Assembly (NCBI GenBank): GCA_038321615.1
Contig: JBBQFC010000004.1
Span: 12,768 to 76,767, forward strand
Reading direction: 5' to 3'
DNA: 64,000 nucleotides
Source of the DNA: Flavobacteriales bacterium
GTDB taxonomy: Bacteria; Bacteroidota; Bacteroidia; Flavobacteriales_D; Cryomorphaceae
This document shows positions 7,745 through 40,944 of this stretch, piece by piece; position 1 is the stretch's first letter, and every line of letters starts with the position of its first letter. A program made the position numbers and the translations under genes. The notes under the pieces are model-generated. The model was given only the letters and a program-made list of their open reading frames with translations, did not search any database and had not been told where the DNA came from.

Positions 7745-7750
7745 AGCAGG

Positions 7751-8161
7751 TTAGTTAGTAAAAAAAGGTGCAAGTAAACTATACAGAGCCTTTGGACAGC
7801 GTATTGGCCGAGACGTGTTTTGATCGACAAAAATTAAAGTTGTATTGGCTGTGGTCAGGAGCAGTCCCACATCGTTGCGCAAAACGTAAGTAAAATGAAT
7901 TCGCGTTTCGGGGAGTTCCGTCATCGACGTCTCTAAAGTCAGTAAGTCATCGTACAATGCCGCTTGGCGGTATTGGATAGAAAAATCGCGAACGGGCAGC
8001 AAAACACCTTGATCTTCGAGCGCTCGATAACTCATGCCCACAGATCGCAACAGTTCTACCCTTCCCATTTCAAGATAAGCCGCATAATTGCCATAGTACA
8101 CGAAGCCCATTCGATCGGTTTCGGCGTATCGCACCCGGAAGCTGATCTCATTTTTTATCAT
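7751..8161 (-). CDS. Acyl-CoA thioesterase, YbgC/4HBT hot-dog family
   Basis: N-terminus FRVRYAETDRMGFVYYGNYAAYLEMGRVELLR is typical of YbgC-type thioesterases (catalytic Asp in ETD). 136 aa. Confidence 0.85.
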   Translation of the reverse strand: MIKNEISFRVRYAETDRMGFVYYGNYAAYLEMGRVELLRSVGMSYRALEDQGVLLPVRDFSIQYRQAALYDDLLTLETSMTELPETRIHFTYVLRNDVGLLLTTANTTLIFVDQNTSRPIRCPKALYSLLAPFFTN

Positions 8162-8165
8162 CTAT

Positions 8166-8173
8166 CAAATGTA
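8166..8173 (-). promoter_or_regulatory. -7 promoter box TAcaTTTG, 4 nt upstream of the thioesterase ATG
   Basis: Minus strand reads TACATTTG-ATAG-ATG. Confidence 0.4.
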
Positions 8174-8704
8174 GAGATAGAAATGGGGAAATTTCAGAAT
8201 ATCCGATCAGTTGATACCTGGCTATAGAAATATCAATTTCGAACATCTACAAATCTGATCAAGATGCTTAGAAGCCGCTTAGTTTTTCTCGGGCATCATC
8301 ATTTCCCACAAATAAACCCTAACTTACCTGCCGCTGCGGGCAAACGAGTCAAAGGCAAAAACAGATAATCTTAGAAAGCTATTGTGATTGTAAAGTTGGT
8401 GTGCTTAATACCCTTACTGTCTAATCATTTAACAATAACTATCTCGCTACTTACTCCAATAGTTTGGACAAAATTATGCTACCCCTTTTACGAAAATTTT
8501 AGCATAAAAATCAATGTTGACGAGCAAAAGAGAAGGATTAAAAAAAGTTTACGGTACTGTAAAACTTTTATTGCAAACAATAGGTAAGGGGCTTTTTTTT
8601 TCACTTTTTTGTCGGAATATTTGCCACCCCGCTCAAGCATCGATGCATGGGTAACGCTATGCGGGAAAAGGTCCATTTATTAACCTAAACTACACTACCA
8701 ACCA

Positions 8705-10135: not shown

Positions 10136-10148
10136 TGAAATCTCAGGA

Positions 10149-10175
10149 AGCCCCGCAATGCGGGGCTATCTTTTT
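10149..10175 (+). terminator. Intrinsic terminator downstream of dnaA
   Basis: 8-bp stem AGCCCCGC/GCGGGGCT with a 3-nt loop, then CTATCTTTTT. Confidence 0.7.
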
Positions 10176-10239
10176 ATTACGTACTTTTGAGAATCCAAGA
10201 ATTGTCGGCAAAGCGTAATACCTACCAAGCCCATTCGAT

Positions 10240-10247
10240 TATCTTTG
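10240..10247 (+). promoter_or_regulatory. -7 promoter box TAtcTTTG, 9 nt upstream of ATG 10257
   Basis: Exact TAnnTTTG match. A second exact match, TActTTTG, lies at 10182..10189. Confidence 0.35.
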
Positions 10248-10256
10248 GAGAGTCGC

Positions 10257-10679
10257 ATGCGTACTTTTCTCCTTATATGCTCTTTTGGCGCCGTCCTGGC
10301 GTGCACGCCTCGTGTACAAGGCTTGGAAGGAGCAGCCGAAAAGACCTTTCCCACCCGGTTTGCCACCAAAGCCGAAAAACCGGGAGCTCCCATTGCTATT
10401 AGCCGCGCCGAGCAGATAGGGGACTTACTAGCGTTGGATGTAACATATTCTGGAGGCTGCGAAGCACATACCTTTGAATTAGTTACCCTTGGAAATCACC
10501 AACCCACATACCCACCCGAACTTCTGGTTAAAATCATTCACAATGCAAATGCAGATCGGTGTAGGAATTTCATTCAAGATCGGATTTACTTCGATTTACA
10601 GCCTTTCCGCCTCGATGGCACAAACAGGATTAACCTTGTAATGGAAGATCAACAAATTACCCAAACATATGATTATTAA
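10257..10679 (+). CDS. Small lipoprotein of unknown function, co-transcribed with the S1 protease
   Basis: Signal and lipobox MRTFLLICSFGAVLAC. Mature part contains YSGGCEAHTFEL and NADRC. Its stop is 4 nt before the protease ATG 10684. Confidence 0.6.
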   Translation: MRTFLLICSFGAVLACTPRVQGLEGAAEKTFPTRFATKAEKPGAPIAISRAEQIGDLLALDVTYSGGCEAHTFELVTLGNHQPTYPPELLVKIIHNANADRCRNFIQDRIYFDLQPFRLDGTNRINLVMEDQQITQTYDY

Positions 10680-10683
10680 GCCC

Positions 10684-25811: not shown

Positions 25812-25851
25812 TTTTTGGTTTTTTTGGGTTGGTGCAATTTGGTGGTGCAAT

Positions 25852-26562
25852 TTAAATTTTAGAAAGGTAATCTGGAAACATCGTTCGCCACAACGGCCAA
25901 TCATGTTCTGCCCAGCGACGTTCATCCATCCATACGTTCATATTCTTTTCCTGAAGAAGCCCACCCAATTTAAGGTTGGCATCTTTACAGATATCCCATT
26001 CGCCATAGCCGAGTATTACTTTAAGCTTCCACAATTCGGGATTTTGATCGCCCTTTATGTAATCTATCGGATTGTTGAAATAAACGTTATCATCGTAGTA
26101 ACCATCTACAAAAGAGCGAATATCGAAAGCGCCACTCATGCTGATTAAATGGCTCACCATTTCGGGGTGCTTGAAGGCAAAATTGGCCGCATGGAATCCA
26201 CCAAAACTGGCGCCAGCTACCACGACCTTATTGATGCCGTAGCTTTCGCGAATAGCGCCTACAACTTCTTCGGCAATAAACTTATCATACCACATGTGGT
26301 TTTTAACGCGCTCGGCTGGATGAATTTTCTTGTTATACCAGCTGTATTTATCTATGCTGTCGGGGCAATAAATCTTAAACCGCCCTTCATTTAGCAAATT
26401 GGCAGCAGAGTCGATCAATTTGAAATCTTTACTTTCAAAATGCCGACCCATAGTGGTCGGAAAAATGATAACCGGAGTGCCGTAATGACCATAAACCAAC
26501 ATTTCGAACTCCTTGCCAAGGGTGGGCGAATTCCACTTAATGTGTTCTTCTTTTACCTGCAT
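25852..26562 (-). CDS. Alpha/beta hydrolase, 'putative esterase' family
   Basis: Nucleophile elbow VAGASFGGFHA. 236 aa. First gene of the minus-strand operon. Confidence 0.7.
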   Translation of the reverse strand: MQVKEEHIKWNSPTLGKEFEMLVYGHYGTPVIIFPTTMGRHFESKDFKLIDSAANLLNEGRFKIYCPDSIDKYSWYNKKIHPAERVKNHMWYDKFIAEEVVGAIRESYGINKVVVAGASFGGFHAANFAFKHPEMVSHLISMSGAFDIRSFVDGYYDDNVYFNNPIDYIKGDQNPELWKLKVILGYGEWDICKDANLKLGGLLQEKNMNVWMDERRWAEHDWPLWRTMFPDYLSKI

Positions 26563-29657: not shown

Positions 29658-31703
29658 ATGCGCAATCTCCCCATTCGATTAAAATTAAGAGCCGCCTTTA
29701 CGTTAGCAATCGGTATGGCTTTTATTATCCTAATAATACGATTGATCTATGATCAAAATAAAAGTGAAACGGCAGACATCGCAAATGCACTTGAAAAATA
29801 TAAAACGTTAGCGCTCCAAAATTCAAAGGATCAGCAAGAATTTCTGCACATGGATTGCGTGAACGAACAATACTACATAACTGGCACGAGCGACAAAATG
29901 ATCGCTCACCAGAAATGGAAAGCCAAGATGGGGAGCGCAATAACAGAAATTCAAAACTTATCAGTGTCAAAAGCATTGGACTTGGATGATTTACTCTATG
30001 AGCTCAACAGGACTCAGATTCGCTCGTTTGACTCTTTCGATAAATTGGCAAACGCCACAACTCTTGTTGGCTACAAAGACTACGGAATAACCGGAGAAAT
30101 GAGAGAATTTGCTCATCAATTGGAAGATAGCTTTCCTGAATTCCTGAAGCCTGAACTGCTATTAATGTTGAGAAGACATGAGAAAGACTTCATTATTCGG
30201 AAGGAAGAAAAATATGCAAGTAAATTTTTTGATCTCTACCGTAAAATTTCAGTCGAGATGAATTCGACCGTAGGCTCATCAAACGGTCATGACGCAAAAA
30301 TAATTATTGATCAATATGCGGAAGCCTTTGGAAAACTCTACCAGCATAGCAAAAGAATAGGATTAACTTCTGGCTCGGGATTGAAAAGCGATTTGGCTGA
30401 CGCCGAGCAGAATTTGCTGGATCAAACAGATCAACTTTTGGTGACTATAAGTGAGAGATCAAAAAATATTCTGCTACGACTACAGATTTACTTTTGGATT
30501 GCAATATCGGGCTGCTTACTTACCCTCATGGCACTGGTAAATTATCTTGCTCGTCTTCTATCCAGACCAGTTCTCATACTTTCGCAACATGTTGATCAGT
30601 TTGTAAGCTCTGATTTTGGGAGCAACATCAAAATTGAAAGTTTCGAAAATCGGCGTGATGAGTTCGGTGGGCTTTATAATAATTTCAAGAAGTTAGCCGA
30701 AGAAATAACCGTTTCATTCAAAGACTACAGGCAAAATGCTGAACAGAAGCAGGCAGAAGTTTTAGAGAAAACTCAAAAGATAGAAGCGCAAAGAAAACAG
30801 CTGGAAACCCATAAAAATCTGCTTATAGGAAAAAATACGGCAATTATGGATAGTATCCGATATGCGCAGCGGCTTCAAGAGGCCATATTCCCAAGCAGTA
30901 AACATATCTCAGAAATTTTGGGAGATTATACCCTAATTTTTAAACCAAAGGATGTTGTTTCCGGAGATTTTTACTGGATTTACGAAACTCCCGATTCAAT
31001 ATTTTGGGCGGTCGGAGACTGCACCGGACACGGGGTTCCTGGAGCTTTCATGAGCATTTTGGGTTATACTTTTCTGAAGCAAGCTGTAGCTGATATGGAT
31101 CTTCGAGAAACCCATGACATCTTAGACTATCTAAACATGGCAATTTCTGAATTGCTCAATAAAAACAACGGTGTGGGTGAAATTAAAGATGGGATGGATA
31201 TCGCACTTTGCCGTTATATAAAACGTGATGGAGTACTTCAATTTTCTGGAGCAAATCGGCCCTTATGCATCATTCGAAACGGTAACGTAGAAATCTATAA
31301 ATCCGATCGATTACCGGTAGGATGGTACTTCGAAAAAGCCCGAGCAGCGTTTACTTCAAAACAGATTCAACTCGAAGATTCTGATTTAATTTACCTTTTC
31401 TCCGATGGATATTACGATCAATTTGGCGGTTCCAATGACAAAAAATTGAAATTCAATAGTTTTAAATCGCTTCTTACAGAACTACATCCTTTTGATCATC
31501 AAGCCAATTACAGGCTCCTGATGTTCAGTTTAGATCATTGGCAGCAAAAGACCGAGCAAGTGGACGACATCTGCGTATTGGGAATAGGCACGGCGAAACT
31601 CAAATCTTACAGTGCCGCAAAGCATATTTCAAAAAATGTAAGTACGCACGTCCCAAAAGGAACTCAAACGGAAGAAAGTGGCAGATTCAAAAGAGTAAAG
31701 TAA
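29658..31703 (+). CDS. Membrane sensor PP2C/SpoIIE-family protein phosphatase
   Basis: N-terminal TM, ~250-aa extracytoplasmic region, second TM, HAMP-like linker and coiled coil. SpoIIE/PP2C domain (VSGDFYW...VGDCTGHGVPGAFMS...DGYYDQFGG...DDICVLG). Confidence 0.85.
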   Translation: MRNLPIRLKLRAAFTLAIGMAFIILIIRLIYDQNKSETADIANALEKYKTLALQNSKDQQEFLHMDCVNEQYYITGTSDKMIAHQKWKAKMGSAITEIQNLSVSKALDLDDLLYELNRTQIRSFDSFDKLANATTLVGYKDYGITGEMREFAHQLEDSFPEFLKPELLLMLRRHEKDFIIRKEEKYASKFFDLYRKISVEMNSTVGSSNGHDAKIIIDQYAEAFGKLYQHSKRIGLTSGSGLKSDLADAEQNLLDQTDQLLVTISERSKNILLRLQIYFWIAISGCLLTLMALVNYLARLLSRPVLILSQHVDQFVSSDFGSNIKIESFENRRDEFGGLYNNFKKLAEEITVSFKDYRQNAEQKQAEVLEKTQKIEAQRKQLETHKNLLIGKNTAIMDSIRYAQRLQEAIFPSSKHISEILGDYTLIFKPKDVVSGDFYWIYETPDSIFWAVGDCTGHGVPGAFMSILGYTFLKQAVADMDLRETHDILDYLNMAISELLNKNNGVGEIKDGMDIALCRYIKRDGVLQFSGANRPLCIIRNGNVEIYKSDRLPVGWYFEKARAAFTSKQIQLEDSDLIYLFSDGYYDQFGGSNDKKLKFNSFKSLLTELHPFDHQANYRLLMFSLDHWQQKTEQVDDICVLGIGTAKLKSYSAAKHISKNVSTHVPKGTQTEESGRFKRVK

Positions 31704-32678: not shown

Positions 32679-33377
32679 CTACCTGCCAAATAAATTGCGG
32701 CCACTTCCAAAGCCGAACTCTGTGCCAATTACAAAAAGACGGGTACCTGGAAAAAGGAGCGGTTCACTTACTAAAAAATATGTTCCAAATAAGAAGTTTC
32801 GATTGAAGTTCATATCGAGACCTGCACCGGCTCTGATCCGATCAAAACCCTGAAATCTGGGAAAATCCGGTTCATAAAGCGCGTAGCGCAGATCGAAGTT
32901 CACATAGGGTTGATACTTCCTATTTACACGGTAGCCTATTTTAAAAGTATTCCGCAGGTTAGTTTCCCAGCCGAGTTCACGGTCTTCTCCGTAGTTTATT
33001 GTTCTTTTCTCCCATTGGCCGCGCAGCCTGTTGGCAAAGGTATATCGACCACTTTTAAAACGGAGCGTAAGGTCGCCGCCCAGCCGGTGCCTATGGCCGT
33101 AAATGCCAGACGCCCGGCGATCGAGTATGTACCGATAGTGGCCACCGACACGGACGTGTTTATTGATTTTATATTGCAGACCCAGATTAGTGAAAGCACG
33201 GTCGAGCTGCGATAGATTCTGCCCGAAGCGAAACTCTTGATCGATTTCAATTTCAAAATCCTTGGTCAAATCGGTAGCAAAGCTGAATGTAGTCCATCCG
33301 CCAAAATCTTGATCGACTTGAGCCTTTGCATAAGCAATACCGCATAAGAAAACAATAAGCCAAAAGGCCTTAAGCAT
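32679..33377 (-). CDS. DUF2490-like outer-membrane protein
   Basis: Signal peptide MLKAFWLIVFLCGIAYAKAQ, then beta-rich GGWTTFSFATDL...QEFRFGQNLSQLDR typical of DUF2490. 8-nt overlap with the upstream gene. Confidence 0.6.
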   Translation of the reverse strand: MLKAFWLIVFLCGIAYAKAQVDQDFGGWTTFSFATDLTKDFEIEIDQEFRFGQNLSQLDRAFTNLGLQYKINKHVRVGGHYRYILDRRASGIYGHRHRLGGDLTLRFKSGRYTFANRLRGQWEKRTINYGEDRELGWETNLRNTFKIGYRVNRKYQPYVNFDLRYALYEPDFPRFQGFDRIRAGAGLDMNFNRNFLFGTYFLVSEPLLFPGTRLFVIGTEFGFGSGRNLFGR

Positions 33378-34104
33378 CGTTATCCTGCTTGCTGTGGTAG
33401 TAAACTTTAATGGTAGCCGTATCGCGAAGAAAATCGATTTTCTTGATGTAAAGTTTGTGCACTACAAGACCCGTGCGAGCCTGAATATCTGCTTTAAGCT
33501 CCGCTCTATGCTCCGGCTTAATAAGCTCTATGCGTTCGTATTCGATGGTTTTCACAAATCCCGTTTGGACAAATACATTCCCTTCCACCAGGAAAGCCAT
33601 AATCAAGATTACTAAATTCATTAGACCGATTTCGAGTATCGATCCTTCTGTTAGCGAAGCGATAAGACCTAAGGTGATAGAAATGAATAAATAGGTCATA
33701 TCTCGGGCGGTGATATCTTCCGTGCGGTAGCGCAAAATGCTGAAAATCGCGAATAACCCGAACGCAGCGCCCACGCCAAAACCACTGTTGTTGTTGAGCA
33801 AAGTGGTGATGATCAATATAATGATATTGAACATAAAGAAGGTGAAGAAGAAATCGTAGCGGCCGTAAACCGGATAATAAATGAACCGGATGAGAATGAA
33901 CATCGCAAGGAGATCTACTGCCATACGAATGAAAAAATGCAGGTCGAAGCGCCCCAAGGCCAAGCTGAAAAATTCAATAGGCTCGGCAGTTGCGGTCGGA
34001 ATGCTTTCCATACCCCAGGGATCTTGACCTAGCCCCAGGAAGGGAAGGACGATACAAACGATTAATAGGAGAAATGATGGTTTCGAGCTAAAAAGTGAAC
34101 GCAT
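33370..34104 (-). CDS. DUF4956-like polytopic membrane protein
   Basis: 4-5 TM helices and FSILRYRTEDITARDMTYLFISITLGLI, which resembles the DUF4956 core. Start placed at ATG 34104. Confidence 0.6.
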   Translation of the reverse strand: MRSLFSSKPSFLLLIVCIVLPFLGLGQDPWGMESIPTATAEPIEFFSLALGRFDLHFFIRMAVDLLAMFILIRFIYYPVYGRYDFFFTFFMFNIIILIITTLLNNNSGFGVGAAFGLFAIFSILRYRTEDITARDMTYLFISITLGLIASLTEGSILEIGLMNLVILIMAFLVEGNVFVQTGFVKTIEYERIELIKPEHRAELKADIQARTGLVVHKLYIKKIDFLRDTATIKVYYHSKQDNDA

Positions 34105-34864
34105 GGTCAATTTTTTGGAGGTAGTGCAGGTTTGGTTTAAAGGCATTCGATTTGAGATTCTTGTGCAATAAAGTCATCGATAAGCAGTACTTACTAAAGG
34201 AAAACTCTCGAATAGAAAGGCTTCGCAGGGCTGCTACGGCTGGCGAACGGCGTATGGCATCGGTTTTCACTTCAATGATCGCTACATCGCCAAAATGAGC
34301 AGACCGCCCATCTTGTTCCGTCGAAATACGAAAATCAATTGATACGCGCTCATTCAGAACGGTATCAATAAGCGCTATGCGGTGGTAGTGAATAGCAACC
34401 GTGGCGCCGAGACTTTTTAAAACTTCTTCGGGAAAATAGTTTGCCAGAAAAGTTCGTGAAGTACTTGAAAGGAGGCTGTCATTGTAGCCCACACGCGTTC
34501 GCTCTTTGCGAGTAAAACCCTTGTTATTCTTCATTTTCACCTCCATAAAGGCGGTGCCTGTATTGGAATATTTGCGGATACGGATCTTTGATCGCGTCGC
34601 TCTTCGGGCGTGGTGTGCCTTGAAAAACGACAAATCTGCTGTGTCTAAATACTGCGAAGAATAGGGCGAAATGGATTGGCCTGCCGCAGTAATATTTTGA
34701 TAATCTTGAGTAATGAGCTTCAAGAAAGCGGCAATGTCATCCTTATGACATAGAAATTTACGGTCGAAACGCTTCATTAAGATTTCCGCTGGAAGAGCTT
34801 CTAGTTCGATTTTTTCGAAAGGCGACACAGCTTGAACAATACAATCGGGGTATTGCTCATTCAT
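34088..34864 (-). CDS. VTC-domain (polyphosphate-polymerase-like, CYTH/triphosphate-tunnel fold) protein
   Basis: RFDRKFL near the N-terminus. IRIRKYSNTGTAFMEVKMKNNKGFTRKERT and IEVKTD basic beta-strand pattern are typical of bacterial VTC proteins. Confidence 0.65.
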   Translation of the reverse strand: MNEQYPDCIVQAVSPFEKIELEALPAEILMKRFDRKFLCHKDDIAAFLKLITQDYQNITAAGQSISPYSSQYLDTADLSFFKAHHARRATRSKIRIRKYSNTGTAFMEVKMKNNKGFTRKERTRVGYNDSLLSSTSRTFLANYFPEEVLKSLGATVAIHYHRIALIDTVLNERVSIDFRISTEQDGRSAHFGDVAIIEVKTDAIRRSPAVAALRSLSIREFSFSKYCLSMTLLHKNLKSNAFKPNLHYLQKIDHAFTF

Positions 34865-35435
34865 ACATGTAGGCTTTTGTTTCTACCAAGATACCGTCAA
34901 CTTCGGTGCGTTTCCCGATTTTAAAACCCCGGTCATCGAAGGAATATATTTCAATTCGGGTCTCATTTCTATCACCAAACACGGTGCGTTTTTCCACCAC
35001 ATCGCCAAAGCTATTGTAGGTGTAAAAAGTAGTGCTCACAAGCTCGCCTGCCCTGTTATAGTATGCCGTGGAAAGCTTATCCCCTTTTTTAAATTTATGT
35101 ACTTGCTTTTCGTATTCGGCCGAGCGCTCTTGGGGATTTCGATCGTAAGGTTGGTCGCGTACTTCTTCTATAATATCATCTCCTTCGTACAACCGCTTTT
35201 CAGTGGTCTTGACGTTTCCGTCGGGGAGCATATCGACTTTTTCCACCCATTCGCCATCTGCATTGTAACTTTCGTGTTCTGAAATGTAAGGCTCCAGAGC
35301 TTCACCATTAGCGTACGGCGTTGTAAGTTCTTTCATAGACTTAATGCCATACGTCTTCTTTAGCTTCGATTGCCCGTAAGCTGAAGCCAGGAATAATGGA
35401 AAAAGTATCAGGAATGCAGCCGTGCTCTTCTTCAT
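34857..35435 (-). CDS. Secreted protein with YD/MORN-like beta-hairpin repeats, unknown function
   Basis: Signal peptide MKKSTAAFLILFPLFLASAYGQ. Recurrent Y-x-Y-(N/D)-x-x-G-x-(V/L) units. 8-nt overlap with the VTC gene. Confidence 0.55.
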   Translation of the reverse strand: MKKSTAAFLILFPLFLASAYGQSKLKKTYGIKSMKELTTPYANGEALEPYISEHESYNADGEWVEKVDMLPDGNVKTTEKRLYEGDDIIEEVRDQPYDRNPQERSAEYEKQVHKFKKGDKLSTAYYNRAGELVSTTFYTYNSFGDVVEKRTVFGDRNETRIEIYSFDDRGFKIGKRTEVDGILVETKAYMYE

Positions 35436-35824
35436 CTTACCACCACAATATCGGGTAAAACTATTTTGGCTTTTCGGTCGGATATTTCAACTTCCAACCT
35501 ACGCGTTTCGTTGGCATCGGTAAGGTCGCAAGCGTTCGAAATTGCGTAAACGGTGTACCTACCTTCTTGTAAATAAGGAAACCAATAAGTGCCATCTGGA
35601 CCCGTGCGCACACGTTCAAAATAAGAAGGTTCATCGCCCGCAATGATATAGACTTCTTCATCTACACCATAATAGGTAGCTCGCAAATCGCTGCAATTCC
35701 CATTATACTCTTCGATCCAGACCTTACCCTGTATGGATGCTTTTCCGCCAGGACCAGGATCCTTTTCGCAGGCTGAAAAAATAAAAATGGCTATTAAAAA
35801 GCTAAAAATCGTGCAGCGCTTCAT
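35432..35824 (-). CDS. Small lipoprotein with carboxypeptidase-regulatory-like (CarboxypepD_reg) beta-sandwich features
   Basis: Lipobox MKRCTIFSFLIAIFIFSAC. IQGKVW...TGPDGTYWFPYLQEGRYTVYA. ATGA overlap with the downstream gene. Confidence 0.55.
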   Translation of the reverse strand: MKRCTIFSFLIAIFIFSACEKDPGPGGKASIQGKVWIEEYNGNCSDLRATYYGVDEEVYIIAGDEPSYFERVRTGPDGTYWFPYLQEGRYTVYAISNACDLTDANETRRLEVEISDRKAKIVLPDIVVVR

Positions 35825-35890
35825 GGTCTCAAAGAGCCAAATATCGCAAACCTTGACGACATGGTAACATTGGCTTAACATTAAACGCGA

Positions 35891-38800
35891 TTAACGAATC
35901 AAGGTAATGTGTCCAAGCCGCTCCACAATCTCGCCTGTAATAGTATTGGTATACCTTATAAAATAAGCATAAACACCAGCTTCGCAGTAGTAATCGCCGC
36001 CATCAAGGTTTCCATTCCAGCCTTTATCAATATCGAAAGTGGTCCAAATAGTCTTCCCCCAGCGATCGATTACGGCGAAGCGAAAATCTTCCACGGCTAT
36101 CTCATTGGCGTAGGCCTTAAATAGATCGTTGACCCCATCGCCATTAGGGGTAAAGGAATTTGGAATATACACGTTGTGGATACGCTCTTTGAAATGAGCG
36201 ATCAGACGCGCCGGGCCCAAGAATTTGTAATTCTGATAACCCACTTCGGGATAAGCGATGGGGTACCCGAAGAAGACTTCCCAATGAGAAAATTCGTAGA
36301 TGCCGCGATTGATTGGGTCAAGCAAGATAAAGTCATTTGATAGAAAACGCTTCTCGTAAGGGAACGTGTCTTCAAATATTCCGTCAATGCGCATCACGCC
36401 TGCTCCTTCGGGTTCTACTTCGACTTGCAGGAGGTAATTTGGCAACTCGACGTAGTTCGCAATAACCACATCAGCAGTATTAAATACGGTAATAATCTCC
36501 GCGCTCGACTCATTAGGCGCTGGTATAGCGTTCAGAATACTCCAATGCGAAAATTCGTGAAAAGGAAGTAGAGACGCTGTTTCCAAAAGCACATCCACAC
36601 CGCCGGGTATTTGCAGATTTGCGGGAAGTGGGGTTATGTCGCTTTCGTTCATCCGCATGCTACCGGCGCCAGCGGGGACTACGTTGAAACTAACGGAGTA
36701 AATAAGTTCTTCGAAGAAAGCCGTTATCGACCCATCAGCGTCGGCGGAGAACAGGTTTTCGGCCGAAATAGGCGCATTAACAAAGACAAAATCCGATTGC
36801 CAATAATCAAAAGCCCAGCCACCATTTGCCGTAGCAAGTATAGCATAATCAGTAGCTGGAAGCTCTATGGTAACAGGAAAGGAATTATAGGTAACACCGT
36901 TCAAAGTGATGCTCCCGCCAAGCGCTGGCTCAGCATTCAAGGTGATATTATAAACTTGGTCGGGTACAAAATGAGCGACCAGGGTATCATTTGCAGTGAA
37001 GGTCAGTAAGATTGCCTCATCCAATTCGTCGGGAGTTATTACGGTATTGTTCGACGTCCAATGCGAAAAGGAAAAGCCAGGATTTTCATCGGCATCAAAA
37101 GGCACTTCGATGCCTCCAAAATAGGCGGTAGTGTAGGGATAGGTCGAGATTTCAAAAGAACTTAGATCGATTCGACCACCCTCTGGTGGATCGGCCATAA
37201 GCGTTATTTGATAAGGGCCGCTCAATTCCGGATAGCAATCAATAAAGCCATCGTTGACTGTAGCGCAGCGGGTATCGATGAAATCGTGAATCTCTTGAAC
37301 GTTCGACTCCCACTCGGCCATGCTCCCGCCCCAACGGGTAATGTGGCCGGGCATTTCAGGAGCGATAAGGCCAACTAAACTATCTAAGTGGTTATGCATA
37401 AAATCGCAACTGAAGTAGATGCCACTCAGATCAGAAAATCGATTAACATACTCCGAGAAGAATTGATCGTTGGTCAGCAGTGCGTTCCAAATAGGCACAT
37501 GGCCTTGACCGCCAGGGTCACCAATTTGAGCCGGGTCGCAGATATCCGCGTTAGCCGATTGATCGGGAATACCCGTAAAATTGACGTAATGCCCAAAAGT
37601 GGCGTCCATATCCCATAGAATATAACGCCATCTCCGACCGTCACCATCTGGATTGCGCCCACGCCACCAACCCGTATTCCAATTGAGCCAGTCGGCGCAA
37701 ACGGTGTAGGAGTTCAACGTGAAATAATCGATCAAACTGGTTACATTGAATCGATCCACTACATATTCGTAATTGGCATCGACAGACATGTCATTACCTA
37801 AAATATAATCGCGGAGATCGTACCATTCATCTGCTGAGCCAAATTCTTCCCAAGTGCCTCCCCAGGTTTTTAAGAAATCTACGTCATTGGAACCTTGGTC
37901 GTAATAATGATCGGTGAAGTCGATGTCATCAACCTTTTCGCGAATCTCATACACACCCCAATATTGCCCGTTCACGTACATCACGCAGGGTTCGTAGCTA
38001 CGCTCATCGAGCTTAAGGTCGGCTACTTGCGAAAGGCTTTGCACATAAGCATCGCGTATGTGGGCACCGCCGTTTTCAAAAGGGTAATTATCGCTAGCAG
38101 CAGCCTTCAGAATCAGGCGTTGGTAGCCATCTCTATCCTTCCCTGGAAACACCGGGTATTCAATTTCATTGCCGTAGCCAAACTCGTCTTGGGTTATATA
38201 GTCAATTCCGCGCTGCGGATAGGCCCACGAATCATTTCCATGTTCATTGAAATCGCCTAGTGCTTGAGCAAGCAGCTCTCCCTGCGGTGAGAAAAGCTCA
38301 AAATGGCCAACGGGTTCAATTTGTTGTCCGTTCAGCAGGGTTAAAAGTTGATTGCCACTTACGGAAACAATTGGCGTGCTATGTGTCTGGTTTAGGAAAT
38401 AGGTGTGGGTGGCAATGAAACTAGGAGGCGTATCGGGATTGCTGCTGAAAGCTCTCGCCCGAATTACCGTCGTTACTGCCAGATTGATAGACCCCGTATA
38501 TACTTGACTGGAGACGATTGGCTCCGAGCCATCGGTAGTGTAGCGAATAGTTGCGCCAGGAGTAGCGGAAGTAATGGTAACATTTGCGTTTCCGGAATAA
38601 TATCCAGGTGCCGTTGCAATTGTAAGCTCGGGATACTCATCGCGCGGAGCTGCATTCGGATTGCCCGGAGTTGGCGTAGTAAATATCGACCAGGTGTTGC
38701 CGCCATCGGTTGTCCTTCCTCGGGAATGCCCACGCTGATTAGCGGTAAGCAATAGGTAGCTATCGACAATGATCCCCCCCGGATTGCTTAGTACTGCTCC

Positions 38801-39145
38801 TTCTTGCTTGGCTTGGGTAATTTTAAAATTAGTGTGCAAATTTGGAAGGGTCTGAATATCCCGACCCGAACACCAAAACCGGAGAAAACCATTACCCGCA
38901 ATATTAATTCCGGCCGGAATAGCCCACTTCATGGGTTCCAGCTCGTTGTCGCTCAAATAAAATCCGCTCAAATCTACTGGTGTGCCAGAAGTATTATAGA
39001 GCTCCAGCCAATCTTCGTAATCGCCAAAATTATCTATGAAGCCACCTCCTTGAAAATTTGCGGCACTCAATTCGTTTATTACCACTTGAGCGCGCAAGGA
39101 GAACCCTATCGAAAAGGCAAAAAGCAGCGTAAGCAATCGGTTCAT
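35891..39145 (-). CDS. CotH-family (atypical protein kinase fold) surface protein with N-terminal lamin-tail domain and T9SS type-B (CHU_C) C-terminal domain
   Basis: LTD (VINELSAANF...DWLELYNTSGTPVDLSGFYLSD). CHB_HEX_C-like module (ATIRYTTDGSEP). CotH core (YVNGQYWGVYEIREKVD). InlB-B-repeat-like modules. C-terminus IPNSFTPNGDGVNDLF. Confidence 0.8.
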   Translation of the reverse strand: MNRLLTLLFAFSIGFSLRAQVVINELSAANFQGGGFIDNFGDYEDWLELYNTSGTPVDLSGFYLSDNELEPMKWAIPAGINIAGNGFLRFWCSGRDIQTLPNLHTNFKITQAKQEGAVLSNPGGIIVDSYLLLTANQRGHSRGRTTDGGNTWSIFTTPTPGNPNAAPRDEYPELTIATAPGYYSGNANVTITSATPGATIRYTTDGSEPIVSSQVYTGSINLAVTTVIRARAFSSNPDTPPSFIATHTYFLNQTHSTPIVSVSGNQLLTLLNGQQIEPVGHFELFSPQGELLAQALGDFNEHGNDSWAYPQRGIDYITQDEFGYGNEIEYPVFPGKDRDGYQRLILKAAASDNYPFENGGAHIRDAYVQSLSQVADLKLDERSYEPCVMYVNGQYWGVYEIREKVDDIDFTDHYYDQGSNDVDFLKTWGGTWEEFGSADEWYDLRDYILGNDMSVDANYEYVVDRFNVTSLIDYFTLNSYTVCADWLNWNTGWWRGRNPDGDGRRWRYILWDMDATFGHYVNFTGIPDQSANADICDPAQIGDPGGQGHVPIWNALLTNDQFFSEYVNRFSDLSGIYFSCDFMHNHLDSLVGLIAPEMPGHITRWGGSMAEWESNVQEIHDFIDTRCATVNDGFIDCYPELSGPYQITLMADPPEGGRIDLSSFEISTYPYTTAYFGGIEVPFDADENPGFSFSHWTSNNTVITPDELDEAILLTFTANDTLVAHFVPDQVYNITLNAEPALGGSITLNGVTYNSFPVTIELPATDYAILATANGGWAFDYWQSDFVFVNAPISAENLFSADADGSITAFFEELIYSVSFNVVPAGAGSMRMNESDITPLPANLQIPGGVDVLLETASLLPFHEFSHWSILNAIPAPNESSAEIITVFNTADVVIANYVELPNYLLQVEVEPEGAGVMRIDGIFEDTFPYEKRFLSNDFILLDPINRGIYEFSHWEVFFGYPIAYPEVGYQNYKFLGPARLIAHFKERIHNVYIPNSFTPNGDGVNDLFKAYANEIAVEDFRFAVIDRWGKTIWTTFDIDKGWNGNLDGGDYYCEAGVYAYFIRYTNTITGEIVERLGHITLIR

Positions 39146-39203
39146 AAAGCAGGTTAAAAAATGGTTTCAGTTCATTGACGATACGTTTAGATACAAGTTG
39201 TAT

Positions 39204-40391
39204 CTAAGGTAATATCACAAATTTAGCAGTTGATTCTCCCAAAACCAAGACATAAGATCCAGTGGGCAAATCAAAGTTCAAATTTTGATTATTGATGAAG
39301 GGCATAATGGGAAATTCTGCGACATTCCTACCCGCTAAGTCATAGACCTTTAGAACATCAGGCTTATTGAGTTCACTGCTCAGAGTGGCACTTCCACTAC
39401 TTGGGTTTGGCCAAATCTTTAAAGGCTTCCGCTCTGCTTTCTGAGCAATGCTGAGTGGGAAACCATTGGTTTCCGAAAAGGAAGGTATCATGCAGCTTAT
39501 CGATCCGGTGCCATTTCCAAATCGACCCTCACTATCATCGGGAATTTGAGGTCCAAATTTCACGTAGTCAACTGTGAGCGTGTCCGGGTTGGAGAGGAGA
39601 ATATCATCGCCGTCGGCACCTAACTTGAAAAAGGTATGCAAGCCGGGTTCAAAAAGGCCTTGGTCGCACCAAATGATCAAATAGCTGTTGGGCGCCATAG
39701 TAGTGTCGGGGAAAACAAATTGCGCAGGCTCCCCGATCTTATCGCTCAAGAACCATCCGCCCAGATTGATGGGTTGTGGGCTGTTGTTGTACAATTCGAT
39801 CCAATCTTCGTAACCTCCCCATTGATCTTGTACCGTACTTTCATTTATAGCTTGATATTCATTGATCACCACCCCCGGGTTCACACTATTGGTATTCGCG
39901 GAAGCAAAGGTGGGAATGAGTATTTTAAAAGGGCCGCTCCCGTTTGGGAATCTACCTATGGTAATATCGTCGGGGATCGAGCCGAAACTCACGAAATCGA
40001 CCGTGGCCGTGTCTGTATCGTACAAACCTACCTTTTCGCCGCTACCACTGAGGTTGAAAGCGGCGTGATAAGCACCCTGCTCCGGTTGGTTGTCGCACCA
40101 GATGATCAGGTAGGAGTCAGCAGGCAACACGGTATTCGGAAAAGCGTACTTGGTTCTTGTTGCTCGGCTGTCTGACAGAAAATAGCCTTCCAGTTGGACG
40201 GCTTCGCCACTTGCGTTGTAAATCTCTATCCAATCGTCGAATTCGCCAAATTCATCGGCGGCTGTACCATCGTTGCCAGCCATGAGTTCATTGATCAAAA
40301 GCTTGCCAAAGAGCGGCTCACATTGTGCCAAAGCTGCTGGAGAATGGCCTGCGAGAATTAATACGAGCCAGCCAAAATTTAATAATTTCAT
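39204..40391 (-). CDS. Secreted protein with two lamin-tail domains and T9SS type-A C-terminal sorting domain
   Basis: LINELMAGNDG...DWIEIYNASGEAVQLEGYFLSD and VINEYQAINE...DWIELYNNSPQPINLGGWFLSD. C-terminus KIWPNPSSGSATL...GSYVLVLGE. Start placed at ATG 40391 (MKLLNFGWLVLILAG). Confidence 0.8.
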   Translation of the reverse strand: MKLLNFGWLVLILAGHSPAALAQCEPLFGKLLINELMAGNDGTAADEFGEFDDWIEIYNASGEAVQLEGYFLSDSRATRTKYAFPNTVLPADSYLIIWCDNQPEQGAYHAAFNLSGSGEKVGLYDTDTATVDFVSFGSIPDDITIGRFPNGSGPFKILIPTFASANTNSVNPGVVINEYQAINESTVQDQWGGYEDWIELYNNSPQPINLGGWFLSDKIGEPAQFVFPDTTMAPNSYLIIWCDQGLFEPGLHTFFKLGADGDDILLSNPDTLTVDYVKFGPQIPDDSEGRFGNGTGSISCMIPSFSETNGFPLSIAQKAERKPLKIWPNPSSGSATLSSELNKPDVLKVYDLAGRNVAEFPIMPFINNQNLNFDLPTGSYVLVLGESTAKFVILP

Positions 40392-40500
40392 AACCGAAAG
40401 GTAGCCAAATATCCGAATTGGAATGTTTAACGAGAAATAATAGGATTGCAAGCCTGGACTAAATAATTACCAAGACTCACACATACACTAAGCTGTGTGC

Positions 40501-40944
40501 TTAGGCCATTACCACCTGATTGACGGATCGATATAAGAACTCATTGCAGATTCTGCGGCGGGCAAAACGCGTTGGGCTGTCGGAATTGAGGAATTTGTTA
40601 TAAAGCTCGCGAGATACCTCAAAGTACTCGAAGCTTTCGCCGTTCGAGAAATCAAGCGTTAATACCTGCTTTTGATAGTTGTAATTGGTTACCTGAGCCG
40701 CGCTGATAGTAGCGTTATAGGCTTCAGCATTCTTCGCCTTGGTTTCTGGAGCCACGCTTACTAAAAAATGGTACGCTTCGATCAAGATTTTACTCTTCGA
40801 TTCCGCATCTTCCCGTTCTGTTTCATCCTGAAATTTATCGGGATGAAATGCCTTCATCACGTTGCGATAAACGGTTTTCAGGCCTTGGAGATCTGCGGCT
40901 GATGTTACACCGAGAACTTTTCGGCTTTCTGAGATTTTCGACAT
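40501..40944 (-). CDS. J-domain protein with C-terminal KTSC domain
   Basis: J-domain HPD motif (YRNVMKAFHPDKF). C-terminal LTLDFSNGESFEYFEVSRELYNKFLNSDSPTRF is KTSC-like. Confidence 0.7.
   Translation of the reverse strand: MSKISESRKVLGVTSAADLQGLKTVYRNVMKAFHPDKFQDETEREDAESKSKILIEAYHFLVSVAPETKAKNAEAYNATISAAQVTNYNYQKQVLTLDFSNGESFEYFEVSRELYNKFLNSDSPTRFARRRICNEFLYRSVNQVVMA

What the first reader, a model, noticed from the sequence alone, without database searches (positions are those of the whole stretch)
32679..40451. Seven-gene operon linking T9SS-exported lamin-tail-domain / CotH-kinase proteins to a VTC-DUF4956-DUF2490 membrane module
Seen in the sequence: seven minus-strand genes with 4-17-nt overlaps or gaps under 60 nt. 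In order they are a 2xLTD protein with a type-A T9SS CTD, a 1084-aa LTD-CotH protein with a type-B (CHU_C) CTD, and a CarboxypepD_reg-like lipoprotein. Then come a secreted YD/MORN-like repeat protein, a VTC-domain protein, a DUF4956 polytopic membrane protein and a DUF2490 outer-membrane-like protein. Established knowledge: Bacillus CotH is an atypical protein kinase of the spore coat. The eukaryotic VTC catalytic domain (Vtc4) polymerises polyphosphate from ATP through a triphosphate-tunnel fold and threads it across a membrane. Bacterial VTC, DUF4956 and DUF2490 proteins have no assigned function. LTDs occur on extracellular phosphoesterases. Inference: the operon may form an envelope-spanning device. 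A cytoplasmic VTC enzyme plus DUF4956 channel and DUF2490 barrel would deliver a phosphoryl polymer or donor to the surface, where the CotH kinase and LTD proteins act. This would solve the problem of how an extracellular kinase gets a phosphodonor. Two different T9SS sorting-domain classes in one operon are also notable.
Basis: partly seen in the sequence, partly recalled or inferred. Interest (0 to 1): 0.75.

Follow-up and report, generated by a model that had tools for sequence, protein, structure and literature searches.

The report
Envelope polyphosphate module beside secreted kinase
A Bacteroidota gene cluster pairs a yeast-type polyphosphate-polymerase domain, a membrane partner and an outer-membrane barrel with secreted CotH-family kinases; the arrangement recurs in many genomes, but no one has tested what it does.

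Summary

Comparison with 80 Bacteroidota loci anchored on DUF4956 shows two linked units rather than one fixed operon:
- A five-gene core, colinear and overlapping: lipoprotein (g3), YD-repeat protein (g4), VTC, DUF4956, DUF2490.
- An upstream unit of T9SS cargo: an LTD protein (g1) and an LTD-CotH kinase (g2).

In the 51 loci with full flanks, VTC is present in 50, DUF2490 in 48 and CotH in 34. CotH genes lie almost only directly upstream on the same strand (51 versus 2, p=1.6e-15).

The reverse does not hold. None of 84 loci anchored on g2-like CotH genes has VTC or DUF4956. About 39% of them carry a paralogous lipoprotein-DUF2490 pair instead.

The catalytic residues of Vtc4 and of CotH are retained. 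DUF4956 has no detectable relative among solved structures. An OprO/P-type phosphate porin takes the place of DUF2490 in two unrelated loci.

A CotH-VTC-DUF4956 cluster was already noted beside Gram-positive pel operons and occurs in Deinococcus. This is therefore a diderm, T9SS-linked variant of a known but uncharacterised cluster.

The most likely function is synthesis of polyphosphate and its hand-over to the cell envelope. Feeding the kinase with it remains speculative.

The parts
39204..40391 (-). g1: secreted protein with two lamin-tail domains and a type-A T9SS C-terminal sorting domain. The longest ORF runs to the TTG at 40451; the likely start is the ATG at 40391.
   Evidence: Pfam LTD E=1.6e-36 (2 stretches), Por_Secre_tail 27.4 bits; TIGR04183 29.4 bits against a cut-off of 23. 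From 40391 the protein begins MKLLNFGWLVLILAGHSPAALAQ, a signal peptide. Orthologues lie directly upstream of the CotH gene in L006, L008 and L018 (E about 1e-157).
35891..39145 (-). g2: 1084-aa T9SS cargo. Order of parts: signal peptide, LTD, CHB_HEX_C/Fn3_assoc, CotH kinase domain, InlB-B-like repeats, type-B (CHU_C) sorting domain.
   Evidence: Pfam CotH E=1.1e-33, CHB_HEX_C_1 1.4e-17, CHU_C 1.2e-14, LTD 2e-10, Flg_new_2 2e-7. TIGR04131 41.8 bits against a cut-off of 35. The same architecture is common in Bacteroidota.
37262..38170 (-). CotH kinase domain of g2 (residues 326-628), including the catalytic Asp485 (37691-37693) and the metal-binding Asp512 (37610-37612).
   Evidence: Profile A4 matches B. 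cereus CotH 5jd9 at E=4.4e-24. D485 (CADW) is conserved in 39 of 40 sequences and D512 (LWDMD) in 40 of 40. They align with B. cereus D224/D247, which I equate with B. subtilis D228/D251 from the shared 23-residue spacing; both B. subtilis residues are needed for activity (PMC7821199). AF2 model pLDDT 86.4; best Foldseek match 5jd9, E=1.3e-12, TM 0.65/0.72. Coordinates checked by translation.
35894..36166 (-). Type-B T9SS sorting domain of g2 (residues 994-1084).
   Evidence: PF13585 CHU_C E=1.2e-14; TIGR04131 41.8 bits.
35432..35824 (-). g3: small lipoprotein with a transthyretin/CarboxypepD_reg-like beta-sandwich; first gene of the conserved five-gene core.
   Evidence: Starts MKRCTIFSFLIAIFIFSAC, and this Cys is invariant in 30 homologues. 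26 of 30 homologues match CarboxypepD_reg, best E=7e-8. Present in 32 of 51 full-flank core loci. A paralogous subfamily pairs with DUF2490 next to CotH where VTC is absent.
34857..35435 (-). g4: secreted protein (Sec signal peptide, no sorting domain) made of about six YD/RHS-like hairpin repeats.
   Evidence: Signal peptide ending ...ASAYGQ. 16 of 32 homologues match RHS_repeat and 12 of 32 match MORN_2. Present in 42 of 51 full-flank core loci and in none of the 84 CotH-anchored loci.
34088..34864 (-). g5: stand-alone cytoplasmic VTC (triphosphate-tunnel) domain protein, the candidate polyphosphate polymerase.
   Evidence: Pfam VTC E=5.7e-24. Profile A3 matches the Vtc4 catalytic domain 3g3q at E=4.4e-5. 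Invariant residues are R32, K36, R91, K93, R95, R97, E108, K110, R162, D177, E198, K200, S224 and K225. By my numbering of the 3g3q chain, these align with Vtc4 K200, R264/R266, K281, R361, E426 and S457/K458. There is no signal peptide or TM segment. Adjacent to DUF4956 in 79 of 80 loci.
33370..34104 (-). g6: DUF4956 inner-membrane protein. Order of parts: N-terminal signal/anchor helix, five TM helices, cytoplasmic ACT-like C-terminal domain.
   Evidence: Pfam DUF4956 E=4e-50. The AF2 model has helices at 10-27, 55-80, 84-105, 111-128, 133-151 and 156-174, and a beta-alpha-beta-beta domain at 182-237 with pLDDT above 90. The loop LRYRTEDxxxRD is invariant. No PDB relative by fold or by profile. 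Start M15 agrees with P0004 (244 aa, 99% identity).
32679..33377 (-). g7: DUF2490 outer-membrane beta-barrel; last gene of the core.
   Evidence: Pfam DUF2490 E=7.9e-18; weak KdgM match below cut-off. Signal peptide MLKAFWLIVFLCGIAYAKAQ. The family is uniformly basic: median pI 9.5-9.7, net charge +10 to +12, n=97. Present in 48 of 51 full-flank loci. A Porin_O_P protein stands in its place in L070 and in Pseudoalteromonas.
40403..40413 (-). Promoter-like box GATATTTGGCT, 11 nt upstream of the g1 start codon.
   Evidence: This 11-mer occurs exactly twice in the 64-kb window, here and upstream of g3. It is one mismatch from the Bacteroidetes -7 consensus TAnnTTTG (consensus from my own knowledge).
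35835..35845 (-). Identical promoter-like box GATATTTGGCT, 10 nt upstream of the g3 start codon; candidate internal promoter of the five-gene core.
   Evidence: CGATATTTG is also found upstream of the g3 orthologues in L018 and L021.

Best explanation
The locus is two linked units.

Unit 1 is a five-gene core (g3 to g7), conserved and self-standing across Bacteroidota. It works as an envelope-spanning (poly)phosphate module:
- The cytoplasmic VTC/triphosphate-tunnel enzyme (g5) makes polyphosphate from ATP at the inner face of the membrane.
- It is docked on its translationally coupled partner DUF4956 (g6).
- The polymer, or a short oligophosphate, is handed across the inner membrane.
- It is then met by the periplasmic YD-repeat protein (g4), the lipoprotein (g3) and the basic DUF2490 barrel (g7), which passes it through or holds it at the outer membrane.

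Unit 2 (g1 and g2) is T9SS cargo: an LTD protein and a surface-anchored LTD-CotH kinase. They act in the same extracellular process, most plausibly on or with the exported phosphate polymer.

Shown: domain identities, retained catalytic residues, predicted locations, conserved gene order, and the one-way enrichment of CotH.

Inferred: polyphosphate as the product, export as the direction, DUF4956 as the conduit, and any use of the product by CotH.
For: - Domains are confirmed.
- The Vtc4 tunnel and catalytic residues are invariant in g5 and in 60 diverse homologues.
- VTC and DUF4956 are adjacent, usually overlapping, in 79 of 80 Bacteroidota loci and in Deinococcus. Gram-positive cases are in the literature.
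- The order g3-g4-VTC-DUF4956-DUF2490 is colinear. In 51 full-flank loci VTC is in 50, DUF2490 in 48, g4 in 42 and g3 in 32. The core stands alone between opposite-strand genes in L024 and L025.
- DUF4956 has five TM helices with conserved intramembrane and loop charges and a cytoplasmic C-terminal domain.
- DUF2490 is uniformly basic.
- A phosphate-selective Porin_O_P stands where DUF2490 would be in a Bacteroidia MAG (L070) and in Pseudoalteromonas.
- CotH lies immediately upstream on the same strand in 34 of 51 loci, with several different CotH architectures (51 upstream versus 2 downstream, p=1.6e-15).
- The CotH fold and both catalytic Asp are retained.
- An identical promoter-like box precedes g1 and g3.
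Against: - There is no biochemical evidence for any bacterial VTC-domain protein in the papers I could search.
- DUF4956 has no detectable similarity to the eukaryotic VTC channel or to any solved structure, and its TM region is modelled at only about pLDDT 67. Its layout of five TM helices plus an ACT-like domain resembles the regulator MgtC.
- None of 84 loci anchored on g2-like CotH genes has VTC or DUF4956. 19 of 49 of them have a lipoprotein-DUF2490 pair without VTC, so the barrel and lipoprotein can serve CotH without an adjacent polymerase.
- 17 of 51 core loci lack CotH.
- The direction of transport is not determined. OprO/P porins are classically uptake porins, and Deinococcus sp. QL22 places VTC-DUF4956 beside phosphonate uptake genes.
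- The basic charge of the g4 family is not kept in the window's copy.
Confidence: 0.4

Rival explanations
1. Phosphate capture and storage, with no export. The basic barrel (DUF2490, or OprO/P elsewhere) admits phosphate or pyrophosphate. VTC stores phosphorus as cytoplasmic polyphosphate. DUF4956 is an MgtC-like membrane anchor or regulator whose ACT-like domain senses a metabolite, not a channel. CotH and LTD proteins are co-regulated surface enzymes of the same phosphorus or stress regulon.
For: - Porin_O_P proteins, classically uptake porins, stand where DUF2490 would be.
- Deinococcus sp. QL22 has VTC-DUF4956 next to phnCDE and HAD acid phosphatases.
- DUF4956 has an ACT-like C-terminal domain and an MgtC-like layout.
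- The authors of the S. intermedius preprint also suggest the polyphosphate stays in the cytoplasm.
- VTC-DUF4956 occurs alone among housekeeping genes in L028, L033 and L038.
Against: - The polymerase uses ATP, not imported phosphate directly.
- A periplasmic YD-repeat protein and a lipoprotein translationally coupled to a cytoplasmic storage enzyme are hard to explain this way.
- hhalign finds no DUF4956-MgtC homology (probability 0.1% against E. coli YhiD).
- The tight, directional CotH adjacency across phyla is not explained.
Confidence: 0.25
2. The tunnel enzyme is not a polyphosphate polymerase. It hydrolyses or cyclises a triphosphate substrate, as other triphosphate-tunnel enzymes do. 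Together with the ACT-like domain of DUF4956 it forms a membrane signalling or regulatory pair that controls the envelope genes.
For: - The triphosphate-tunnel superfamily includes triphosphatases, adenylate cyclases and RNA triphosphatases (established knowledge).
- The match to Vtc4 is remote (E=4.4e-5).
- LytS/LytTR two-component genes and a TPR-SpoIIE phosphatase are recurrent neighbours.
Against: - g5 belongs to Pfam VTC, not CYTH.
- It keeps the Lys that aligns with Vtc4 K200 and the whole basic tunnel set, invariant over 60 diverse homologues.
- NCBI names the family polyphosphate polymerase domain-containing protein.
Confidence: 0.15
3. There is no functional coupling between CotH/LTD and the VTC core. 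The adjacency is inherited synteny, or loose co-location of envelope genes near T9SS loci.
For: - None of 84 CotH-anchored loci has VTC.
- 17 of 51 core loci have no CotH.
- In 18-22 loci the core sits next to ispF-porV-porU and porP/gldJ, which suggests a T9SS-rich neighbourhood.
Against: - CotH genes of at least four different architectures occupy the same position directly upstream on the same strand.
- The CotH-VTC-DUF4956 triad recurs in Deinococcota and, per the literature, in Firmicutes and Actinobacteria. Those phyla have no T9SS.
- g1 and g3 share an identical promoter-like box.
Confidence: 0.15

Closest known systems
Eukaryotic VTC complex (Vtc4/Vtc3 or Vtc2/Vtc1 polyphosphate polymerase-translocase)
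   Same: g5 has the same catalytic domain family (Pfam VTC). It retains the tunnel residues that align with Vtc4 K200, R264/R266, K281, R361, E426 and S457/K458. The enzyme is cytoplasmic and is encoded with an obligatory membrane partner.
   Different: - There is no SPX domain.
- The polymerase is not fused to the membrane part.
- The partner is DUF4956 (five TM helices plus an ACT-like domain). It shows no detectable similarity to the Vtc1-type three-helix channel subunits, or to anything else in the PDB.
- The module carries extra periplasmic and outer-membrane components.
- Polymerase and translocase activities are untested.
CotH / polyphosphate-polymerase / DUF4956 (+DUF4832) accessory cluster of Gram-positive pel operons and C. 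perfringens NELoc-2
   Same: The same triad of a secreted CotH-like kinase, a VTC-domain protein and DUF4956 in one cluster. The same triad is annotated in Deinococcus taeanensis. Its function is unknown there too.
   Different: - There is no Pel or chitin-synthase-like polysaccharide synthase nearby.
- CotH is T9SS cargo fused to LTD domains.
- Three diderm-specific genes are added: the g3 lipoprotein, the g4 YD-repeat protein and the DUF2490 barrel.
- The VTC core often stands alone, and CotH often occurs without it.
Bacillus spore-coat kinase CotH with its substrates CotB and CotG
   Same: The kinase fold (Foldseek E=1.3e-12 to 5jd9) and both catalytic Asp are shared.
   Different: The Bacillus enzyme acts in the mother cell, where ATP is available, and has no signal peptide, LTD or sorting domain. 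g2 is exported to the cell surface. Its substrate and phosphodonor are unknown.
MgtC family (five TM helices plus a C-terminal ACT-like domain; a regulator of the F-ATPase and PhoR in Salmonella)
   Same: DUF4956 has the same overall layout of five TM helices followed by a small cytoplasmic ACT-like domain. A preprint reports that CDD assigns the streptococcal orthologue to MgtC.
   Different: No sequence homology is detectable here: hhalign probability 0.1% against E. coli YhiD, and no MgtC Pfam hit even at E up to 10.
OprP/OprO phosphate- and pyrophosphate-selective porins
   Same: A Porin_O_P protein stands where DUF2490 would be in two unrelated loci: directly downstream of DUF4956 in Pseudoalteromonas and directly upstream of VTC in L070. 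DUF2490 is uniformly basic, as expected for an anion-selective barrel.
   Different: DUF2490 is a smaller barrel (about 210 mature residues) and is not homologous to OprP by Pfam. No transport data exist.

Membership tests
VTC / triphosphate-tunnel polyphosphate polymerase (Vtc4-type) | Sequence membership in Pfam VTC above the curated cut-off | tested here: met
   85.4 bits against a cut-off of 23, covering profile positions 2-235 of 235.
VTC / triphosphate-tunnel polyphosphate polymerase (Vtc4-type) | Conserved basic tunnel and catalytic residues (those aligning with Vtc4 K200, R264/R266, K281, R361, E426, S457/K458) | tested here: met
   Profile A3 aligns to 3g3q at E=4.4e-5. g5 K36, R95/R97, K110, R162, E198 and S224/K225 are invariant in 60 homologues. 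The residue numbering of Vtc4 is my mapping from the chain alignment.
VTC / triphosphate-tunnel polyphosphate polymerase (Vtc4-type) | SPX regulatory domain and a fused or associated Vtc1-type transmembrane channel | tested here: not met
   g5 is a stand-alone 258-aa domain. The best 150 of 6042 representative homologues are all 226-319 aa. The partner DUF4956 has no detectable similarity to any PDB chain.
VTC / triphosphate-tunnel polyphosphate polymerase (Vtc4-type) | ATP-dependent polyphosphate synthesis coupled to translocation | not testable with these tools
   Needs enzymology and reconstitution.
CotH atypical protein kinase | CotH fold | tested here: met
   Pfam CotH 117.6 bits. Profile against 5jd9 E=4.4e-24. 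AF2 model pLDDT 86.4; Foldseek 5jd9 E=1.3e-12, TM 0.65/0.72.
CotH atypical protein kinase | Catalytic Asp and metal-binding Asp (B. subtilis D228 and D251) | tested here: met
   g2 D485 is conserved in 39 of 40 sequences and D512 in 40 of 40. The role of D228 and D251 is from PMC7821199.
CotH atypical protein kinase | Ser/Thr protein kinase activity with ATP | not testable with these tools
   Substrate and phosphodonor are unknown for any secreted bacterial CotH.
T9SS cargo | N-terminal Sec signal peptide plus a C-terminal sorting domain of type A or type B | tested here: met
   g1: TIGR04183 29.4 bits, cut-off 23. g2: TIGR04131 41.8 bits, cut-off 35. Signal peptides were read from the sequences.
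CotH-VTC-DUF4956 gene cluster (as described beside Gram-positive pel operons) | The three genes contiguous on one strand | tested here: met
   Present in the window, in 34 of 51 Bacteroidota loci and in Deinococcus taeanensis.
CotH-VTC-DUF4956 gene cluster (as described beside Gram-positive pel operons) | Location next to a synthase-dependent exopolysaccharide (pel or chitin-synthase-like) operon | tested here: not met
   The window's neighbours are Sua5, a SpoIIE-type phosphatase, glycogen synthase, a metallo-beta-lactamase-fold protein and a DnaJ-KTSC protein. No such synthase appears among the recurrent neighbours in 80 loci.
Single seven-gene operon | Same strand with overlaps or very short gaps throughout, and no internal promoter | tested here: inconclusive
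   g3 to g7 overlap by 4-17 nt. The g1/g2 and g2/g3 gaps are 58 and 66 nt, and the same promoter-like 11-mer precedes g1 and g3. Co-transcription needs RT-PCR or RNA-seq.
MgtC family (considered for DUF4956) | Sequence homology to Pfam MgtC | tested here: not met
   No MgtC hit at E up to 10. hhalign probability 0.1% against E. coli YhiD. Only the layout is similar.

The most novel reading that the evidence does not exclude
Bacteria have a third, VTC-type route to polyphosphate. It is built as a trans-envelope secretion line: a cytoplasmic tunnel polymerase, a DUF4956 inner-membrane conduit, periplasmic g4 and g3, and a DUF2490 outer-membrane outlet. Its product is the phosphodonor, or the substrate, of surface-exposed CotH kinases. 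That would explain how a kinase can work outside the cell, where there is no ATP.
Probability: 0.15. Interest if true: 0.9.

Novelty: new variant of a known kind. Interest (0 to 1): 0.62.

Why it matters
- Bacterial polyphosphate synthesis is attributed to PPK1 and PPK2. A working VTC-type polymerase with a dedicated membrane partner would be a third route, and a likely evolutionary relative of the eukaryotic vacuolar machine.
- The family is large: 6042 representative clusters of VTC-domain proteins, and thousands of DUF4956 proteins. It occurs in gut Bacteroides, in streptococci and in C. perfringens virulence loci. No member has been tested biochemically in the papers I could search.
- If the product reaches the envelope, three things become testable:
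  - what secreted CotH kinases use as a phosphodonor;
  - whether bacteria build surface polyphosphate on purpose;
  - what DUF4956 and DUF2490 do.
- Comparative analysis here yields a concrete dissection into three modules: A (LTD and CotH cargo), B (lipoprotein plus barrel) and C (g4 plus VTC plus DUF4956). Genetics can address each module directly.

Tried and rejected
- **Single-sequence PDB searches.** Searches with g2 and g5 found nothing useful. Profiles were needed.
- **Word-indexed homologue search with g5.** It returned only three proteins. The exhaustive search was used instead.
- **First CotH HMM.** It was too narrow and missed the Pfam-annotated CotH of L001. After iteration it recovered that gene, and 10 of 10 sampled hits were confirmed by Pfam.
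- **DUF4956 as a relative of the VTC channel.** No Foldseek hit reached E<0.001 and there was no profile hit in the PDB. This is inconclusive, because the TM part of the model has only about pLDDT 67.
- **DUF4956 as an MgtC relative.** hhalign against E. coli YhiD gave 0.1% probability. The template was a single sequence, so this is a weak test.
- **g4 as a basic polyanion binder.** The family's median pI is 9.0, but the window's copy has pI 5.1. Rejected as a conserved property.
- **Alternative partners where CotH is absent.** Neighbours varied: serpin, GH1, sulfatase, GEVED and others. Only Porin_O_P and Cthe_2159 were noteworthy.
- **Sigma-70 promoter and terminator scan.** Not above the shuffled expectation, and not appropriate for Bacteroidota.
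- **Upstream DnaJ-KTSC gene (40501-40944).** Not conserved in related loci, so it was excluded from the cluster.
- **Source contig of the window.** An exact look-up of P0001 failed.
- **Nguyen et al. 2016 CotH paper.** Not held in the library. The residue roles were taken from PMC7821199.
- **Rfam and tRNA scans.** Nothing found in the cluster.

Full report
**1. The observation**

Region 32679-40451 holds seven consecutive minus-strand ORFs.
- g1 (39204-40451): two lamin-tail domains (E=1.6e-36) and a type-A T9SS sorting domain (TIGR04183, 29.4 bits, cut-off 23).
- g2 (35891-39145, 1084 aa): LTD, CHB_HEX_C_1/Fn3_assoc, CotH (E=1.1e-33), Flg_new_2 repeats and a type-B sorting domain (TIGR04131, 41.8 bits, cut-off 35).
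- g5 (34088-34864): VTC (E=5.7e-24).
- g6: DUF4956 (E=4.5e-50).
- g7 (32679-33377): DUF2490 (E=7.9e-18).

g3 and g4 are weak or blank on their own, but their families are clear.
- All 30 aligned g3 homologues have a signal sequence ending in an invariant Cys. 26 of them match CarboxypepD_reg.
- All g4 homologues have a Sec signal peptide followed by about six YD-like hairpin repeats. 16 of 32 match RHS_repeat and 12 of 32 match MORN_2.

Signal peptides and homologue lengths move three start codons: g1 to 40391, g3 to 35824 and g6 to 34104. With these starts, g3 to g7 overlap by 4, 8, 17 and 8 nt. The g1/g2 and g2/g3 gaps are 58 and 66 nt.

**2. Are the enzymes intact?**

*VTC protein (g5).* A profile of g5 plus 59 diverse homologues aligns to the catalytic domain of yeast Vtc4 (3g3q, E=4.4e-5). 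The homologues come from an exhaustive search that found 6042 representative clusters. The best 150 are all stand-alone proteins of 226-319 aa. The columns invariant in all 60 sequences include g5 K36, R95/R97, K110, R162, E198 and S224/K225. By my numbering of the 3g3q chain, these align with Vtc4 K200, R264/R266, K281, R361, E426 and S457/K458, the basic tunnel and catalytic set.

*CotH domain (g2).* A profile of the g2 kinase domain aligns to B. cereus CotH (5jd9, E=4.4e-24). B. subtilis D228 and D251 are both required for activity (PMC7821199). They correspond to g2 D485 (conserved in 39 of 40 sequences) and D512 (40 of 40). An AlphaFold model of the domain (pLDDT 86.4, pTM 0.88) has B. 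cereus CotH as its best structural match (E=1.3e-12, TM 0.65/0.72). Lipid kinases, CtkA and Fam20 follow.

**3. The membrane parts**

*DUF4956 (g6).* It was modelled with 52 homologues.
- It has an N-terminal hydrophobic helix, five TM helices (residues 55-174, pLDDT about 67) and a confident C-terminal beta-alpha-beta-beta domain (182-237, pLDDT above 90).
- The positive-inside rule puts the invariant loop LRYRTEDxxxRD and the C-terminal domain in the cytoplasm (my reading).
- Foldseek against the PDB gave nothing below E=0.001, only weak ACT-like matches to the C-terminal domain.
- A profile search of PDB sequences gave nothing even at E up to 10.
- A preprint on the streptococcal orthologue reports that CDD assigns it to MgtC. 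I could not reproduce this: hhalign gave 0.1% probability against E. coli YhiD, and there is no MgtC Pfam hit.
- Whether DUF4956 is a conduit, an anchor or a regulator remains open.

*DUF2490 (g7).* The literature describes the family as an outer-membrane barrel with Sec signal peptides. It is uniformly basic: median pI 9.5-9.7 and net charge +10 to +12 in 97 sequences.

**4. Gene-neighbourhood statistics, anchored on DUF4956**

A scan of one genome per species found 531 relatives.
- The order [CotH/LTD]-[g3]-[g4]-[VTC]-[DUF4956]-[DUF2490] is colinear on one strand.
- Among the 51 loci with at least 5 kb upstream and 3 kb downstream, VTC is present in 50, DUF2490 in 48, g4 in 42, CotH in 34 and g3 in 32.
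- All 10 sampled CotH calls were confirmed by Pfam. They show at least four architectures: about 490 aa with no sorting domain, about 510 aa with a type-A domain, CotH-LTD with a type-A domain, and the long g2 type.
- CotH ORFs are concentrated directly upstream: 51 upstream against 2 downstream, in 478 kb and 572 kb of flank (binomial p=1.6e-15). 53 of 54 are on the core's strand, and 38 end within 400 nt of the core.
- Where CotH is absent, the five-gene core can sit between opposite-strand genes (L024, L025). It is therefore a self-standing unit. No alternative partner recurs.

**5. The reverse direction, anchored on CotH**

- Four g2-like CotH genes on long contigs have no VTC, DUF4956 or DUF2490 within 8 kb.
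- None of 80 metagenome loci anchored on the closest relatives of the g2 kinase domain has VTC, DUF4956 or g4. 53 of the 84 CotH-anchored loci have at least 3 kb downstream and 49 have at least 3 kb upstream.
- 19 of those 49 carry a divergently transcribed pair of a g3-like lipoprotein and DUF2490 right next to CotH.
- These pairs form their own subfamilies. All 22 barrels and all 26 lipoproteins have another such pair as nearest neighbour. Barrel identity to the core type is 22%, against 39% within the subfamily.
- L052, L053 and L057 carry a second lipoprotein-barrel pair beside the full core. In L052 it comes with a second CotH.

This gives three modules:
- A: LTD and CotH cargo.
- B: lipoprotein plus barrel.
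- C: g4 plus VTC plus DUF4956.

A+B, B+C and A+B+C all occur. The window is A+B+C. The full seven-gene form recurs in Cryomorphaceae MAGs L006, L008 and L018.

**6. Other phyla**

A protein search of annotated plasmids and chromids with g6 found three records.
- Deinococcus taeanensis: CotH kinase family protein, then polyphosphate polymerase domain protein, then DUF4956, contiguous on one strand.
- Deinococcus sp. QL22: VTC then DUF4956, beside phnCDE and HAD acid phosphatases.
- Pseudoalteromonas: an LTD protein, a VTC remnant, DUF4956, and then, starting 2 nt after the DUF4956 stop, a Porin_O_P porin (E=2.4e-47).

A Bacteroidia MAG (L070) also has a Porin_O_P homologue directly upstream of VTC-DUF4956 and no DUF2490. 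These are two independent cases of a phosphate-selective porin standing in for DUF2490. This is the best indication found here that a phosphate-type anion crosses the outer membrane in this system. It does not give the direction.

Published work had already noted cotH, a polyphosphate polymerase gene and DUF4956 as accessory genes of Gram-positive pel operons and in C. perfringens NELoc-2. It also lists DUF4956 and DUF2490 as adjacent genes in B. thetaiotaomicron. I found no paper on CotH with T9SS, and none testing a bacterial VTC protein.

**7. Transcription units**

A sigma-70 scan is uninformative. The 11-mer GATATTTGGCT occurs exactly twice in the 64-kb window. It lies 11 nt upstream of the g1 ATG and 10 nt upstream of the g3 ATG. 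CGATATTTG also precedes g3 in L018 and L021. The 11-mer is one mismatch from the Bacteroidetes -7 consensus TAnnTTTG, which I cite from my own knowledge.

I infer two co-regulated units, g1-g2 and g3-g7, rather than one seven-gene operon. This matches the modular pattern in sections 4 and 5.

**8. Mechanism**

The most likely reading (confidence about 0.4) has two parts.
- The core is a bacterial counterpart of the VTC machine. A cytoplasmic tunnel polymerase makes polyphosphate from ATP on a dedicated inner-membrane partner, and the product is passed to envelope components ending in a basic barrel.
- The secreted CotH and LTD proteins work in the same extracellular process.

What is shown:
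- the domain identities;
- the retained catalytic residues;
- the predicted locations;
- the conserved gene order;
- the one-way enrichment of CotH.

What is inferred:
- polyphosphate as the product;
- export as the direction;
- DUF4956 as the conduit;
- any use of the product by CotH.

However, many g2-like CotH genes have a barrel-lipoprotein pair but no polymerase next to them, so I give that idea about 0.15.

The rivals are:
- phosphate capture and cytoplasmic storage, with DUF4956 as anchor or regulator (0.25);
- a tunnel enzyme that is not a polymerase (0.15);
- no functional coupling of CotH to the core (0.15).

**9. Verdict**

The feature is real and conserved. It is a diderm, T9SS-linked variant of a cluster already noted but never characterised. 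It is interesting because a large, widespread family with a eukaryote-like polyphosphate polymerase domain remains untested, and because the three-module dissection makes direct experiments possible.

Noticed in passing
window 23703-25925 (-): A 740-aa protein with no Pfam hit. By eye the N-terminal ~340 aa look like an ATP-grasp-type enzyme. The C-terminal half is a very basic tandem repeat, PKVKGKPGPKPRxKAEGD, about 14 copies (60-nt DNA period, 24187-24819), followed by a Lys/Pro/Ala-rich tail. It explains the AT-skew dip at 24-26 kb.
   Followed up: partly
L009-L066 (18-22 of the 80 DUF4956-anchored loci), about 1-9 kb downstream of DUF2490: The VTC core is followed by convergent ispF-porV-porU, and further on by porP/sprF and a gldJ-like gene, which are core T9SS components. 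The window itself has no such genes. This could be clade synteny or a T9SS link.
   Followed up: partly
window 29658-31703 (+); also L006, L008, L026, L032, L040, L042: A SpoIIE (PP2C-type) phosphatase-domain gene, with TPR repeats in the locus homologues tested (L026, L032), recurs within a few kb of the module. The window's copy matches the L032 homologue at E=1e-57. Its position and strand vary between loci.
   Followed up: partly
L001 4264-6116; 12-18 of the 80 loci (e.g. L031, L036, L040, L052, L071, L078): A LytS-type histidine kinase plus a LytTR response regulator is a frequent neighbour of the module. In L001 it directly follows VTC-DUF4956-DUF2490-CotH.
   Followed up: no
L090-L169 (e.g. 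L113 8044-9152, L135 8021-9174): A divergent pair of a g3-like lipoprotein and DUF2490 sits beside LTD-CotH genes with no VTC or DUF4956. These pairs form a separate paralogous subfamily of both proteins.
   Followed up: yes
L171 (Pseudoalteromonas sp. CuT4-3, NZ_CP142031.1) 6090-8468; L070 7754-8947: An OprO/P-type phosphate porin stands in for DUF2490: directly downstream of DUF4956 in Pseudoalteromonas and directly upstream of VTC in L070. The Pseudoalteromonas locus keeps only a ~107-aa remnant of VTC, overlapping a small LTD gene.
   Followed up: partly
L059 6205-10606: A variant gene order: DUF2490, then a Cthe_2159-type carbohydrate-binding beta-helix protein (E=1e-96), then g4, VTC and DUF4956.
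   Followed up: no
L007 646-1932: One uninterrupted ORF matches both DUF4956 and DUF2490. This is either a fusion or, more likely, an assembly or frameshift error in a 2-kb MAG contig.
   Followed up: no
L173 (Deinococcus sp. QL22, NZ_CP097150.1) 5635-11667: VTC-DUF4956 without CotH lies next to HAD acid phosphatases and the phnDCE phosphonate/phosphate ABC transporter, a phosphorus-acquisition neighbourhood.
   Followed up: no
window 39145-39204 (g1/g2 gap): A perfect 8-bp inverted repeat, AGATACAA-C-TTGTATCT, lies just after the g1 stop codon. It is AT-rich with no clear T-run, and its role is unknown.
   Followed up: no
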